A DNA stretch of 64,000 nt, from NCBI RefSeq assembly GCF_044324875.1, contig NZ_CP172185.1. One strand, 5' to 3'. The DNA is from Escherichia coli (GTDB lineage Bacteria; Pseudomonadota; Gammaproteobacteria; Enterobacterales; Enterobacteriaceae). Made by a program: the position numbers. Within the stretch, counting starts at the first letter, position 1; the number at the start of each line of letters is the position of its first letter. Below, in pieces: positions 23,301 to 26,300 of the stretch.

Positions 23301-26300
23301 GGAATAAAGGCATCAAGCGACCGATAAGTGGCGCTAATAATGTGGTGATAAAACCCGCGGCGATAGTGGCACCGAATATCCCCAGCAGGCCGATATCCGG
23401 GTTCATGCCAATGGCTATCATTGGTGTTACAGCGGCGAAGGTCACTGACATAATCACCGGCAGGCGGATCCCCATAAAGCGGCCGATACCGATACATTGC
23501 AATAATGTGACGATCCCGCAGCAAAAGAGATCCGAGCTAATGAGCATCGCAATAGCTTCTTTTGAGAGGCCCAGTCGGTCACCAATCATAAGAGGAACAG
23601 CGACTGCACCTGCGTACATGACAAGGACGTGTTGCAGACCGAGTATGATCAGCTTTCCTGGTGATAATATGCGGTCAACCTCATCAGTTGGGCGGTCTTG
23701 CCCAGAAGATGAGGGAAGTTGGGAATCTATGGCGCTCATCAGTGTTTCTCCTTTCGCCCGCCAGAGTAAAAAGCAACCGTTTACGTTAATGAAACTGTCT
23801 AAACACATGCTCGTGGAGTGCCAGTTTTTGCGAGGAAGGGGAGTTAGAGACAGGAATTGCGGAGGCAATCACATAATCGTGGTTAAACCACGAAAATGAG
23901 AAGAGAACCTGACAATGGAATTATCTGTAATTTTCTCATATTGATATTTCATTAATCATTCTGGCATGTCGCACTCTCGCATTTAATCGTTTTTATCTGG
24001 ATAGCGCTCTTTTGGTCGGCAATGTTGAAGTAATGAAAGCGGCACAGATTGAGGGGCAATAATTTGAACTCAGTCGCAAAATTATAATTAAATCGGTCAT
24101 GCTACCTAATATATGCCCGTTTATTGCATCGCGAAATTTGAGAAGACATAACTCATTAAATGAAAGGGATGCAAATGAATAAGTTTATCGCTGCTGAAGC
24201 TGCGGAATGTATAGGCTGTCATGCTTGTGAAATTGCCTGTGCGATGGCACATAATCAAGAAAACTGGCCGCTGAGTCACAGTGACTTTCGACCGCGTATC
24301 CACGTTGTAGGGAAAGGCCAGGCTGCGAATCCGGTGGCCTGCCATCACTGCAACAATGCCCCTTGCGTTACGGCTTGTCCGGTTAATGCTCTGACTTTCC
24401 AGCCCGATAGCGTACAACTGGACGAGCAAAAATGTATTGGTTGTAAAAGATGCGCAATCGCTTGCCCCTTTGGCGTCGTTGAGATGGTCGATACGATTGC
24501 GCAGAAATGCGACCTTTGTAACCAGCGTAGTTCCGGCACGCAAGCCTGTATTGAAGTCTGCCCAACACAGGCGTTACGGCTGATGGACGATAAAGGGTTA
24601 CAGCAGATAAAGGTGGCCCGCCAGCGCAAAACGGCAGCAGGAAAAGCGTCATCAGACGCTCAGCCATCTCGCAGTGCAGCGTTGCTCCCCGTTAACTCGC
24701 GTAAAGGCGCAGATAAAATTTCAGCGAGTGAACGGAAAACCCACTTTGGTGAAATCTATTGCGGGCTGGATCCACAACAAGCGACTTATGAGAGTGACCG
24801 CTGTGTTTATTGTGCCGAAAAAGCTAACTGCAACTGGCATTGCCCGCTGCATAACGCTATTCCGGATTACATCCGTCTGGTGCAGGAAGGAAAGATTATT
24901 GAAGCGGCAGAACTTTGCCACCAGACCAGTTCCTTACCAGAAATTTGCGGCAGAGTTTGCCCACAGGACCGTCTTTGTGAAGGCGCATGTACTTTGAAAG
25001 ATCACTCTGGCGCAGTCACTATCGGTAATCTGGAACGCTACATCACCGATACCGCGCTGGCGATGGGCTGGCGTCCCGATGTCAGCAAAGTTGTTCCCCG
25101 TAGCGAAAAAGTGGCGGTGATTGGCGCTGGGCCTGCAGGGTTAGGGTGTGCTGATATTCTGGCGCGCGCAGGAGTTCAGGTTGATGTCTTTGATCGCCAT
25201 CCAGAAATTGGCGGTATGCTGACTTTTGGCATACCTCCTTTCAAACTCGATAAAACGGTATTAAGCCAGCGGCGAGAGATATTCACCGCAATGGGAATCG
25301 ACTTTCATCTTAATTGTGAAATTGGCCGCGATATTACCTTTGGCGATTTAACTTCTGAATATGATGCAGTTTTCATCGGCGTGGGGACTTACGGGATGAT
25401 GCGAGCAGATCTGCCGCATGAAGATGCGCCCGGTGTCATTCAGGCTCTACCGTTCCTGACTGCCCATACCCGCCAGCTCATGGGGTTGCCGGAGTCTGCA
25501 GAGTATCCGCTGACGGATGTGGAAGGTAAGCGAGTCGTGGTATTGGGCGGTGGCGATACGACCATGGATTGTTTGAGGACCTCCATCCGCCTCAATGCCG
25601 CCAGCGTGACCTGCGCGTATCGTCGTGATGAAGTCAGTATGCCGGGCTCGCGCAAAGAGGTGGTCAATGCGCGCGAGGAAGGTGTCGAGTTTCAGTTCAA
25701 TGTTCAGCCGCAATATATCGCTTGTGACGAAGATGGGCGTTTAACTGCGGTGGGCCTGATTCGTACCGCCATGGGTGAGCCGGGGCCGGATGGTCGCCGT
25801 CGTCCTCGTCCGGTAGCGGGTTCAGAGTTTGAATTGCCCGCCGATGTTCTCATTATGGCCTTTGGTTTCCAGGCGCATGCCATGCCGTGGTTGCAGGGCA
25901 GCGGAATTAAACTCGATAAATGGGGCCTGATTCAAACCGGTGACGTTGGGTATTTACCTACCCAGACGCATCTGAAAAAAGTCTTTGCTGGTGGTGATGC
26001 AGTTCATGGCGCGGATCTGGTTGTCACTGCAATGGCCGCAGGAAGGCAGGCGGCGCGCGATATGTTAACTCTGTTTGATACGAAGGCATCGTGATGAAAT
26101 CGTTAATTATCGTTAATCCGGCTGACTGTATTGGCTGCCGTACTTGTGAAGTGGCCTGTGTGGTCGCTCACCCTTCAGAACAGGAGTTGAATGCCGATGT
26201 CTTTTTACCCCGGCTGAAGGTACAGCGACTGGACAGCATCAGTGCGCCGGTGATGTGCCATCAGTGTGAAAATGCCCCTTGTGTTAGCGCTTGCCCCGTG

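What the first reader, a model, noticed from the sequence alone, without database searches (positions are those of the whole stretch)
23740..24174. uacT-ygfT divergent intergenic region carries the second copy of the 15-mer
This 435-bp AT-rich region between divergent uacT and ygfT-ygfS contains GTAATTTTCTCATATTGATATTTCATTA at 23927..23954, the second exact copy of the 15-mer found upstream of ygeV. A nearby TGGCAT (23964..23969) does not have a correctly spaced -12 GC, so I do not call a sigma54 promoter here. The region probably holds the control elements that couple urate uptake (uacT) to the ygfT-ygfS oxidoreductase.
Basis: seen in the sequence. Interest (0 to 1): 0.5.

Follow-up and report, generated by a model that had tools for sequence, protein, structure and literature searches.

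The report
Shared enhancer for urate-degradation genes
The repeated 15-mer is very probably the docking site of YgeV, the sigma-54 activator of the E. coli urate/purine-degradation cluster, placed between the urate importer gene uacT and the oxidoreductase gene ygfT so that one enhancer can switch on both.

Summary
TTCTCATATTGATAT occurs exactly twice, at 23933 and 48972, and is not a chance repeat. It is the core of an imperfect palindrome, T(A/C)TCA-N3-TGA(T/G)A. That palindrome lies upstream of every sigma-54 promoter of the cluster (ygfT/uacT, ygeW/ygeV, ygfK, xdhA twice), with one more copy inside yqeC. These sites are conserved in Citrobacter. The block is exact in 98% of E. coli genomes, while flanking DNA varies.

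The palindrome matches the enhancer motif predicted in 2019 for the clostridial activator DioR, which controls the same genes. A matrix built only from the clostridial sites ranks 23931-23949 first in the 64-kb window. YgeV homologues at 40-53% identity share gene neighbourhood, motif and a near-invariant DNA-reading helix.

However, two sigma-54 elements exist elsewhere in the region:
- ygfT at 24112-24128, a published ChIP-seq site.
- A conserved but weak, unreported candidate for uacT on the minus strand at 23824-23808.

Enhancer-to-uacT spacing is fixed at 110 bp. Enhancer-to-ygfT spacing is 177 bp, or 177+21 bp in one Citrobacter.

Binding by YgeV is inferred, not shown. Verdict: a new member of a known kind, of moderate interest.

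The parts
23931..23949 (.). YgeV/DioR-type enhancer (UAS), TTTTCTCATATTGATATTT. The centre, 23940, lies about -143 from the predicted uacT start and about -199 from the ygfT start.
   Evidence: Best hit in the whole window (score 20.3) for a matrix built only from clostridial DioR sites. Invariant in Escherichia clades and Citrobacter. Exact in 5215 of 5304 E. coli genomes, against 31% and 69% for the flanking blocks.
23951..23969 (.). Conserved neighbouring block, TTTAATCATTCTGGCAT. It may be a degenerate second site (AATCA-TTC-TGGCA) centred 20 bp from the first.
   Evidence: Conserved in all six aligned species. It scores below zero with the clostridial matrix, so its role is unproven. Tandem sites 15-20 bp apart are seen in the clostridial DioR tables; pairs 19 bp apart are seen in L028.
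23808..23824 (-). Predicted sigma-54 promoter of uacT, CTGGCACTCCACGAGCA (GG at 23822-23821, GC at 23810-23809). The predicted start is near 23797, giving a leader of about 58 nt.
   Evidence: Correct GG-N10-GC spacing. The block is invariant from E. coli to Citrobacter R56 except at positions where sigma-54 promoters normally vary. It lies exactly 110 bp from the enhancer in 7 sequences. Weak by matrix, 6.0, the same as the ChIP-validated ygfT site. Not reported in the sigma-54 ChIP-seq study.
24112..24128 (+). Sigma-54 promoter of ygfT-ygfS, TATGCCCGTTTATTGCA, with a non-canonical TG at -24. The start is near 24139.
   Evidence: Published sigma-54 ChIP-seq site OS32 in K-12. The K-12 sequence is identical here. 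Invariant across species. It differs by one base from the potF sigma-54 site.
23771..23786 (.). PurR-like box, AAGCAACCGTTTACGT, in the predicted uacT leader at about +11 to +26.
   Evidence: 13 of 16 matches to the PurR consensus. Invariant in all aligned species. PurR binding at this exact spot has not been shown. PurR ChIP-chip regions do exist nearby, at ygfT and ygfK.
23858..23873 (.). Weak CRP-like site, TGCGGAGGCAATCACA, between the enhancer and the uacT promoter.
   Evidence: The half-sites are conserved and the spacer varies across species. With 2 mismatches it is not above chance as a pattern match. The case rests on analogy with the perfect CRP site at ygfK.
48970..48988 (.). Second copy of the enhancer, AATTCTCATATTGATATAG, in the ygeW-ygeV intergenic region. 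It lies about -234 from the ygeW sigma-54 start and about 160 bp upstream of the ygeV ATG.
   Evidence: score 17.8. Conserved in Citrobacter. 15 of 17 bases match the C. difficile DioR site AATTCTCGTATTGATAAAA.
39301..39319 (.). Enhancer upstream of ygfK with a perfect palindrome, TATCA-TAA-TGATA, about -202 from the start.
   Evidence: score 16.9. Conserved in Citrobacter. Matches the C. botulinum DioR site ATTTATCATAATGATAAGG over 18 of its 19 bases (TTTATCATAATGATAAGG).
54809..54827 (.). xdhA enhancer site 1, TATCA-CAT-TGAT on the xdhA strand, about -152 from the start.
   Evidence: score 12.7. Conserved in Citrobacter with a change only in the spacer.
54788..54806 (.). xdhA enhancer site 2, carrying the exact 12-mer CTCATATTGATA (54791..54802, minus strand), about -131 from the start and 21 bp from site 1.
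   Evidence: In Citrobacter it reads CTCATAATGATA, a change only in the spacer.
40691..40709 (.). Perfect palindrome TTCTCA-ATG-TGAGAA inside the 3' end of yqeC, about 160 bp upstream of yqeB.
   Evidence: Matrix score 15.7. Seventeen consecutive invariant bases in E. coli and Citrobacter while the neighbouring codons vary. I found no sigma-54 promoter downstream of it.
49141..50919 (+). [quoted passage not shown] It is the inferred binder of the motif.
   Evidence: Pfam domains. Homologues at 40-53% identity sit in the same gene neighbourhood and carry the same motif. The helix LGIGIATLYRKI is conserved.
48756..48772 (-). Sigma-54 promoter of ygeW, CTGGCATAGTTATTGTT.
   Evidence: Matrix score 15.2. 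The K-12 equivalent is ChIP-seq site OS30. Conserved in Citrobacter.
39119..39135 (-). Sigma-54 promoter of ygfK, GTGGTGCGATTGTTGCT.
   Evidence: ChIP-seq site OS31..
54677..54693 (-). Sigma-54 promoter of xdhA, CTGGCGTAAATCTTGCC.
   Evidence: ChIP-seq site OS29..

Best explanation
The 15-mer is the core of an enhancer (upstream activating sequence) for YgeV, the sigma-54-dependent activator encoded in this cluster. YgeV is the enterobacterial counterpart of the clostridial regulator DioR.

Proposed mechanism:
1. YgeV dimers bind the imperfect palindrome T(A/C)TCA-N3-TGA(T/G)A through their C-terminal Fis-type helix-turn-helix.
2. When the N-terminal sensor region is triggered, the protein assembles into an ATPase ring. 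The trigger is presumably urate or a product of it, since urate strongly induces ygfT and ygfK.
3. The ring loops over to RNA polymerase-sigma-54 waiting at the promoters and opens them.

In this intergenic region a single enhancer, centred at 23940, sits between two divergent sigma-54 promoters. One is ygfT-ygfS (24112..24128, start near 24139). The other is a predicted promoter for uacT (23824..23808, start near 23797). Urate uptake and the YgfT oxidoreductase would therefore be switched on together with xdhABC, ygeW-ygeX-ygeY-hyuA and ygfK-ssnA-ygfM-xdhD.

Status of each step:
- Shown here: the motif, its distribution, its conservation and its match to the DioR motif.
- Taken from the literature: sigma-54 occupancy at ygfT, ygeW, ygfK and xdhA; co-expression of the genes; dependence of ygfT expression on ygeV.
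- Inferred: physical binding by YgeV, the uacT promoter, the signal sensed, and two-way action of the one enhancer.
For: 1. Non-random and site-specific distribution.
- CTCATATTGATA: 4 copies against 0.00 expected.
- TATCANNNTGATA with up to 1 mismatch: 7 against 1.58 expected.
- TCAYAWTGAT: 6 against 0.74 expected, with 5 of the 6 in the four sigma-54 upstream regions.

2. Independent matrix test. A matrix built only from 17 clostridial DioR sites (Nie et al. 2019, PMC6615313, supplementary Table S3) was run over the window. It ranks 23931..23949 first (20.3), followed by ygeW/ygeV (17.8), ygfK (16.9), the yqeC-internal site (15.7) and xdhA (12.7). The best score in shuffled windows averaged 12.4, with a 95th percentile of 16.4. 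In 29 kb of unrelated K-12 DNA the best score was 9.0.

3. Same target genes. The DioR regulon is dpaL, ygeW-ygfK-ssnA-ygeY, yqeB, yqeC-ygfJ, xdhABC and pbuX.

4. Orthology of the regulator. Full-length YgeV homologues at 53%, 44% and 40% identity lie next to ygeW, dpaL, ygeY, hyuA, xdh, yqeB and ygfK. Their loci carry the same palindrome beside sigma-54 promoters. The recognition helix LGIGIATLYRKI is near-invariant from E. coli to a 29%-GC organism.

5. Conservation of the sites. All five regulatory sites are kept in Citrobacter sp. R56, and they are the only TCAYAWTGAT hits in about 45 kb there. Substitutions fall in the 3-bp spacer. The 46-bp block is exact in 98% of E. coli genomes, against 31% and 69% for its flanks.

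6. Promoter context.
- Sigma-54 ChIP-seq sites exist at xdhA, ygeW, ygfK and ygfT (PMC4591121).
- The enhancers lie 131-234 bp upstream of the starts.
- No sigma-70-like promoter was found in the region.
- Enhancer-to-uacT-promoter spacing is exactly 110 bp in 7 sequences.
- Enhancer-to-ygfT-promoter spacing is 177 bp, or 198 bp (+21, two helical turns) in Citrobacter R56.

7. Genetics and expression from the literature.
- ygfT expression is reduced in a ygeV mutant, as cited in PMC10602906.
- Urate strongly induces ygfK and ygfT.
Against: - No experiment shows YgeV, or DioR, bound to this DNA. The clostridial motif is itself a comparative-genomics prediction.
- I did not have the named DioR protein sequences. 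Orthology rests on full-length homology, gene neighbourhood and the motif.
- The uacT sigma-54 element is weak by matrix (6.0, because of GAGCA at -12) and was not detected in the sigma-54 ChIP-seq study.
- The ygfT element is also weak (6.0), with low ChIP enrichment (FAT 3).
- Enhancer-binding proteins usually need two or more sites. The neighbouring conserved block here is a poor match.
- No IHF site was found.
- The iModulon genes ybiY and rcsB lack the motif or were not examined. No site was found upstream of ybiY or aegA.
Confidence: 0.8

Rival explanations
1. The motif is a real enhancer for YgeV but serves only ygfT-ygfS. In this reading uacT is transcribed from another, unidentified promoter, and the conserved block at 23808..23824 has a different role, such as a site for another protein.
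For: The uacT element scores only 6.0 on the sigma-54 matrix. Sigma-54 ChIP-seq reported ygfT but not uacT.
Against: - uacT is in the YgeV co-expression module.
- No sigma-70-like promoter exists in the region.
- The block keeps GG and GC at the correct spacing and varies only at permitted positions.
- Its distance to the enhancer is exactly 110 bp in 7 sequences, although the sequence in between diverges.
- The ChIP-validated ygfT site has the same low score.
Confidence: 0.15
2. The palindrome is bound by a different regulator, such as Fur, FNR, CRP, PurR or an unknown protein, rather than by YgeV.
For: The motif is AT-rich and contains TGATA/TATCA and TTGAT, which recur in Fur and FNR boxes. 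At xdhA, TTGATACGTATCAC is a 9/10 FNR-like match by eye (sequence). PurR and CRP do act in this cluster.
Against: - The best Fur match in the region is 11/19, and there is no FNR match with up to 2 mismatches.
- The FNR-like extension at xdhA is not kept in Citrobacter.
- PurR and CRP boxes are separate, distinct sequences.
- The motif travels with YgeV homologues across phyla, and their recognition helix is conserved.
- It matches the DioR motif.
- It sits at enhancer distances from sigma-54 promoters.
Confidence: 0.04
3. The repeat is a chance match or a leftover of a small duplication, with no function.
For: Only 15 bp are identical between the two copies, and one exact 12-mer copy (inside ygeY) is indeed a coding coincidence.
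Against: - Expected count is 0.00 in shuffles.
- The sites are conserved across genera while their flanks diverge.
- The block is exact in 98% of E. coli genomes.
- It is the top hit of an independently derived matrix.
Confidence: 0.01

Closest known systems
DioR enhancer (UAS) motif and regulon of Clostridiales (Nie, Dong and Yang 2019, BMC Genomics 20:565; a comparative-genomics prediction)
   Same: - The palindrome is the same, TT(A/C)TCA-N3-TGA(T/G)AA. The E. coli ygfK site matches the C. botulinum ygeW site over 18 of its 19 bases. The E. coli 15-mer copy at ygeW/ygeV matches a C. difficile dpaL site at 15 of 17 bases.
- The target genes are the same.
- The position is the same, 130-390 bp upstream of sigma-54 promoters, often in tandem.
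- The regulator has the same architecture and a conserved recognition helix.
   Different: - It occurs in a gamma-proteobacterium, with GC-richer flanks and mixed half-sites (TCTCA with TGATA).
- In the library I could search, no paper describes it for E. coli YgeV.
- Here one site sits between two divergent sigma-54 promoters that include the urate importer uacT and ygfT. Neither gene is in the clostridial regulon list.
- Neither system has been tested by binding experiments.
Classical enhancers of bacterial enhancer-binding proteins, for example NtrC sites at glnAp2, or the PrpR-activated prpBCDE promoter, which also needs CRP (from established knowledge)
   Same: Dyad-symmetric sites 100-250 bp upstream of a -24/-12 promoter. 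They act at a distance by looping and are independent of orientation. The activator gene lies next to a target operon and is transcribed divergently from it. A CRP site lies between enhancer and promoter, in perfect form at ygfK.
   Different: The sequence is different, and the half-sites are shorter and closer together (centres about 8 bp apart). No IHF consensus is present. Only one strong site is present in the uacT-ygfT region. Two of the promoters are non-canonical: TG at -24 for ygfT and GAGCA at -12 for uacT.
PurR operators of the purine regulon (Cho et al. 2011, PMC3159470)
   Same: PurR boxes occur in the same regulatory regions. The ChIP-chip regions at ygfK-ssnA and ygfT-ygfS carry motifs that I located at 39345..39360 and 24452..24467.
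   Different: The PurR box, ACGCAAACGTTTGCGT, is a different sequence from the 15-mer. It is an additional layer of control, not an explanation for the repeat.

Membership tests
Enhancer (UAS) of a sigma-54 enhancer-binding protein | Lies upstream, typically about 80-250 bp, of a sigma-54 (-24 GG / -12 GC) promoter | tested here: met
   The centre at 23940 is about 199 bp upstream of the ygfT start (ChIP-seq site) and about 143 bp upstream of the predicted uacT start. The other copies lie at -131 and -152 (xdhA), -202 (ygfK) and -234 (ygeW).
Enhancer (UAS) of a sigma-54 enhancer-binding protein | Dyad symmetry suited to a dimeric helix-turn-helix protein | tested here: met
   TCTCA-TAT-TGATA here is imperfect. 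It is perfect at ygfK (TATCA-TAA-TGATA) and inside yqeC (TTCTCA-ATG-TGAGAA). Substitutions between species fall in the 3-bp spacer.
Enhancer (UAS) of a sigma-54 enhancer-binding protein | A cognate activator with an AAA+ sigma-54 interaction domain and a DNA-binding domain is encoded and linked to the targets | tested here: met
   ygeV (49141..50919) has PF00158 and PF02954. It is transcribed divergently from ygeW and lies inside the cluster.
Enhancer (UAS) of a sigma-54 enhancer-binding protein | Physical binding of the activator to the site | not testable with these tools
   This needs EMSA, footprinting or ChIP. No such data were found in the literature searches.
Enhancer (UAS) of a sigma-54 enhancer-binding protein | Transcription of the target depends on the activator and on sigma-54 | tested here: inconclusive
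   Literature only. ygfT expression is reduced in a ygeV mutant (cited in PMC10602906). Sigma-54 occupies the ygfT site. uacT and ygfT are in the YgeV iModulon. No test has used a mutated site.
DioR-type regulon (Nie et al. 2019) | The site matches the DioR UAS motif | tested here: met
   The matrix from 17 clostridial sites gives 20.3 at 23931..23949, the best score in the window and above the 95th percentile of shuffle maxima, 16.4.
DioR-type regulon (Nie et al. 2019) | The regulator is an orthologue of DioR | tested here: inconclusive
   The named DioR sequences (CBO2889, CD3186) were not available. A 29%-GC full-length homologue (P0128, 40% identity) lies next to dpaL and ygeY-like genes with DioR-type tandem sites. 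Homologues at 53% and 44% identity share the gene neighbourhood and the motif. The helix-turn-helix is conserved.
DioR-type regulon (Nie et al. 2019) | The regulated genes are the selenium-dependent purine/urate-degradation genes | tested here: met
   [quoted passage not shown] The DioR regulon list is.
Sigma-54 promoter (for the uacT element at 23808..23824) | GG and GC separated by 10 bp within a TGGCAC-N5-TTGCA-like sequence | tested here: met
   CTGGCAC-TCCAC-GAGCA has the correct spacing. Because of GA in place of TT, the matrix score is only 6.0, equal to the validated ygfT site.
Sigma-54 promoter (for the uacT element at 23808..23824) | Occupied by sigma-54 holoenzyme, with a start about 12 bp downstream | tested here: not met
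   It is not among the sigma-54 ChIP-seq sites of Bonocora et al., in either the main table or the supplements. Weak sites could have been missed, since the ygfT site reached only FAT 3. No transcription-start data were available.

The most novel reading that the evidence does not exclude
One YgeV enhancer drives two divergent sigma-54 promoters at once, under strict helical phasing: a fixed 110 bp to uacT, and 177 bp or 177+21 bp to ygfT. One of them is a so far unrecognised sigma-54 promoter for the urate importer. The activator and its DNA motif have stayed together from Firmicutes to Enterobacteria. That would make YgeV the urate-responsive master switch of gut urate degradation in E. coli, with PurR and CRP as added layers of control.
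Probability: 0.5. Interest if true: 0.65.

Novelty: new member of a known kind. Interest (0 to 1): 0.55.

Why it matters
The ygeV-to-uacT cluster is the E. coli version of the gut bacterial pathway that removes urate in humans, which is relevant to gout. A 2025 paper states that its regulation "remains poorly understood". YgeV is one of the few E. coli sigma-54 activators with no defined binding site or signal.

A defined 13-19-bp site at every promoter of the regulon makes YgeV's role directly testable by EMSA, site mutants and reporters. It explains the YgeV co-expression module mechanistically. It adds uacT as a probable sigma-54 target. It also gives engineers of urate-degrading probiotics the native control elements to keep or replace. 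The match between clostridial and enterobacterial motifs supports the untested DioR prediction in return.

Tried and rejected
- Fur, FNR and IHF sites in the region. The best Fur match is 11/19, there is no FNR match with up to 2 mismatches, and there is no IHF consensus. All three were rejected.
- The TGGCAT at 23962 as a sigma-54 -24 element. There is no GC at the right spacing, the score is 4.6, and it is not conserved in Citrobacter R56.
- Sigma-70 promoters. None were found in 23700..24200.
- The ygeY intragenic 12-mer and the guaD one-mismatch copy as regulatory sites. The ygeY copy is lost through synonymous changes in Citrobacter. Both are in coding sequence and were treated as coincidence.
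- A second strong YgeV site next to the 15-mer. Nothing scored above 0 at offsets of 14-24 bp with the clostridial matrix. That matrix over-penalises GC-containing flanks: it also misses xdhA site 2.
- CRP at uacT and xdhA. These are only 2-mismatch matches, and that class is not enriched (32 against 28.7 expected). Kept only as weak analogies to the perfect site at ygfK.
- The motif upstream of ybiY and aegA in K-12. Absent.
- The search for homologous proteins with YgeV returned only near-identical E. coli entries and was of no use for other species. I reached the Citrobacter loci by walking along the cluster with exact-protein look-ups instead.
- Reitzer and Schneider 2001 and Iwadate and Kato 2019 could not be read because they are not held. 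Their content is cited only second-hand.
- A sigma-54 promoter between the yqeC-internal palindrome and yqeB. None was found by eye.
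Full report
**What the window is.** The window is E. coli chromosome. A 2-kb piece around the finding is 100% identical to a clinical isolate and 95-99% identical to more than 5,000 genomes. The annotation places the finding between uacT (urate/H+ symporter, 22291..23739, minus strand) and ygfT-ygfS (24175..26582, plus strand). This is one end of the purine/urate-degradation cluster, which runs through ghxQ, guaD, xanQ, xdhD-ygfM-ssnA-ygfK, mocA, yqeC-yqeB, arcC-hyuA-ygeY-dpaL-ygeW, ygeV (49141..50919) and xdhCBA (50959..54621).

**Checking the observation.** The 28-mer is at 23927..23954. The shared exact 15-mer, TTCTCATATTGATAT, is at 23933 and 48972. The region is 39.8% GC against 49.9% for the window. 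TGGCAT is at 23962..23967, two bases from the stated position, and lacks a correctly spaced GC.
- The 12-mer core CTCATATTGATA has four exact copies, at 23935, 48974, 54791 (171 bp upstream of xdhA) and 45913 (inside ygeY). Shuffles give 0.00 expected.
- The ygeY copy encodes the metal-binding motif DAHIDT. In Citrobacter it is changed by synonymous substitutions, so it is a coding coincidence.

**The motif is a palindrome at every sigma-54 promoter of the cluster.** Upstream of ygfK there is a perfect palindrome, TATCA-TAA-TGATA. The 15-mer is the imperfect version, TCTCA-TAT-TGATA. The enrichment figures are:
- TATCANNNTGATA with at most one mismatch gives 7 hits against 1.58 expected.
- TCAYAWTGAT gives 6 hits against 0.74 expected.
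- Five of those six lie in the four intergenic regions uacT/ygfT, ygfK-upstream, ygeW/ygeV and xdhA-upstream (twice, 21 bp apart). Together these regions make up 2.5% of the window.

These are the same four places where a published ChIP-seq study found sigma-54 bound in K-12 (Bonocora et al. 2015, PMC4591121):
- xdhA: CTGGCGTAAATCTTGCC
- ygeW: CTGGCACACTTATTGTT
- ygfK: GTGGTGCGATTGTTGCT
- ygfT: TATGCCCGTTTATTGCA

The ygfT site is 24112..24128 in the window. The K-12 intergenic region is 99% identical and unchanged at all the elements discussed. The palindromes lie about 131 to 234 bp upstream of the inferred starts, which are enhancer distances.

**Conservation.** I collected the uacT-ygfT region from two Escherichia clades, E. 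whittamii and two Citrobacter species. I then walked along the Citrobacter sp. R56 chromosome to obtain the other three regulatory regions.

In the uacT-ygfT alignment four blocks stand out against a diverged background:
- the block containing the 15-mer, plus an adjacent TTTAATCATTCTGGCAT;
- the ygfT sigma-54 site;
- a block on the minus strand reading CTGGCA(C/T)(T/C)CCACGAGCA;
- a block AAGCAACCGTTTAC in the uacT leader.

In Citrobacter, TCAYAWTGAT occurs only at the five orthologous regulatory sites in about 45 kb. The differences from E. coli fall in the 3-bp spacer, for example CTCATAATGATA and TATCACAATGAT at xdhA. That is the pattern expected of a dimer site.

Within E. coli, the 46-bp block around the 15-mer is exact in 5215 of 5304 genomes. 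The two flanking 46-bp blocks are exact in 1522 of 4896 and 3071 of 4477 genomes.

[quoted passage not shown] The literature links it to these genes:
- ygfT expression is reported to be lower in a ygeV mutant (cited).
- Urate strongly induces ygfK and ygfT.

The decisive lead came from Nie, Dong and Yang (2019, PMC6615313). They predicted by comparative genomics that a clostridial activator, DioR, controls dpaL, ygeW-ygfK-ssnA-ygeY, yqeB, yqeC-ygfJ, xdhABC and pbuX. Their table of DioR sites shows the same palindrome:
- The C. botulinum site ATTTATCATAATGATAAGG matches the E. coli ygfK site over 18 of its 19 bases.
- The C. difficile site AATTCTCGTATTGATAAAA matches the E. coli ygeW/ygeV copy of the 15-mer at 15 of 17 positions.

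As an independent test I built a matrix from 17 clostridial 19-mers alone and scanned the window. The best hit in all 64 kb is 23931..23949 (20.3). Next come 48970 (17.8), 39301 (16.9), a site inside yqeC (40691, 15.7) and 54809 (12.7). Shuffled windows give a mean maximum of 12.4 and a 95th percentile of 16.4. Twenty-nine kb of unrelated K-12 DNA gives at most 9.0, with nothing upstream of ybiY or aegA.

**Orthology of the regulator.** A search of 1.8 billion representative proteins found many full-length relatives of YgeV. I looked up three, at 53%, 44% and 40% identity. All lie among ygeW, dpaL, ygeY, hyuA, xdh, yqeB, yqeC, mocA and ygfK homologues. Their loci carry the palindrome next to sigma-54 promoters:
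- The 53% relative has AATTATCAAACTGATAATT between divergent xdh and ygfT-like genes.
- The 29%-GC relative has tandem AATTATCATATTGATAAAT-type sites upstream of dpaL and of the regulator gene.

The C-terminal helix LGIGIATLYRKI is practically invariant across all of them. This explains why the DNA motif is the same. I could not align the named DioR proteins themselves.

**Architecture of the uacT-ygfT region.** On the minus strand, CTGGCACTCCACGAGCA (23824..23808) has GG and GC at the correct spacing.
- By a matrix built from published ChIP-seq sites it scores only 6.0. That is the same as the validated ygfT site and is due to GA where TT is usual.
- It is not in the ChIP-seq tables.
- Its support is evolutionary. 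The block is invariant from E. coli to Citrobacter R56 except at positions 6-7, where sigma-54 promoters vary. Its distance to the enhancer is exactly 110 bp in all seven sequences, although the sequence in between has diverged.
- The enhancer-to-ygfT-promoter distance is 177 bp in six sequences and 198 bp in Citrobacter R56. The difference is 21 bp, two helical turns. That fits a looping geometry that must keep its face of the helix.
- No sigma-70-like promoter is present.

I therefore read the region as one enhancer between two divergent sigma-54 promoters. It lies about 143 bp from the uacT start (near 23797) and about 199 bp from the ygfT start (near 24139). The 53%-identity relative has the same layout between xdh and a ygfT-like gene.

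**Additional layers of control.**
- PurR. The uacT leader carries a PurR-like box at 23771..23786, with 13 of 16 matches and invariant across species. PurR ChIP-chip (Cho et al. 2011, PMC3159470) reported binding regions at ygfK-ssnA and ygfT-ygfS. I located their motifs at 39345..39360 and 24452..24467. The boxes at 23771 and 48863 are unreported predictions.
- CRP. A perfect CRP consensus lies between the enhancer and the promoter at ygfK (39198..39213), and a one-mismatch site lies upstream of ygeW. The candidates at uacT (23858..23873) and xdhA are weak and not above chance.

**Rivals.**
- Chance is excluded by the statistics and the conservation.
- Fur, FNR and IHF do not fit.
- The most serious alternative is the narrower reading that the enhancer serves ygfT only and that uacT has another promoter. 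I give this about 0.15.

**Novelty.** This is a bacterial enhancer of a well-known kind, and its sequence family was predicted for clostridia in 2019. In the library I could search, no paper describes a YgeV binding site or links YgeV to DioR, and a 2025 paper calls the regulation of these genes poorly understood. I rate it a new member of a known kind, with moderate interest. It turns an orphan activator and a medically topical pathway into a directly testable regulon, and it adds a probable sigma-54 promoter for the urate importer.

Noticed in passing
window 45913..45924 (inside ygeY) and 28856..28867 (inside guaD): There is an exact 12-mer copy inside ygeY and a one-mismatch copy inside guaD. 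The ygeY copy encodes DAHIDT, an M20 peptidase metal-binding motif, and is lost through synonymous changes in Citrobacter. The guaD copy is conserved, but it is coding sequence.
   Followed up: yes
window 40691..40709 (3' end of yqeC, about 160 bp upstream of yqeB): A perfect palindrome, TTCTCA-ATG-TGAGAA, of the C. difficile DioR type. Seventeen bases are invariant between E. coli and Citrobacter while nearby codons vary. In C. difficile, yqeB has a DioR site and a sigma-54 promoter, but I found no sigma-54 promoter here.
   Followed up: partly
window 39345..39360, 24452..24467, 23771..23786 and 48863..48878: PurR boxes. The first two are the motifs of published PurR ChIP-chip regions (ygfK-ssnA and ygfT-ygfS). 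The other two are unreported PurR-like boxes in conserved blocks, one in the uacT leader and one upstream of ygeW. Repression of a purine-degradation regulon by the purine repressor is counter-intuitive and unexplained.
   Followed up: partly
window 39198..39213 and 48815..48830: A perfect CRP consensus, TGTGAATGAACTCACA, lies between the enhancer and the sigma-54 promoter of ygfK. A one-mismatch site lies upstream of the ygeW promoter. CRP may act as the DNA-bending factor here, since no IHF consensus is present.
   Followed up: partly
window 24112..24128; L026 12442..12458: The ygfT sigma-54 site has TG instead of GG at -24 and differs by one base from the potF site, TATGCACGTTTATTGCA. The ygfT-like gene next to the 53%-identity YgeV relative also has TG (TGTGCATCTTTTTTGCA). 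This looks like a conserved weak-promoter design.
   Followed up: no
L008 (Escherichia sp. MOD1-EC7003) 6001..7060: ygfT is cut after about residue 292 and joined about 170 bp from the xdhA-upstream enhancer. This implies a deletion of roughly 29.6 kb that removes the whole purine/urate cluster, from within ygfT through xdhA.
   Followed up: partly
L005/L016 (Citrobacter sp. R56), downstream of ygfT: ygfS is absent. ygfT is followed directly by ghxQ.
   Followed up: no
window 54789..54802: TTGATACGTATCAC overlaps xdhA enhancer site 2 and is a 9/10 match to the FNR consensus. It is not conserved in Citrobacter.
   Followed up: partly
window 23878..23892: A perfect 7-bp inverted repeat, CGTGGTT-A-AACCACG, lies between the CRP-like site and the enhancer. 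It is not conserved in the other species, so it is probably of no significance.
   Followed up: partly
window about 55.8-64 kb: The far end of the window carries type III secretion (ETT2) genes, eivF, sctC and an EscV-family gene, together with a tRNA-Gly. These are unrelated to the finding.
   Followed up: no
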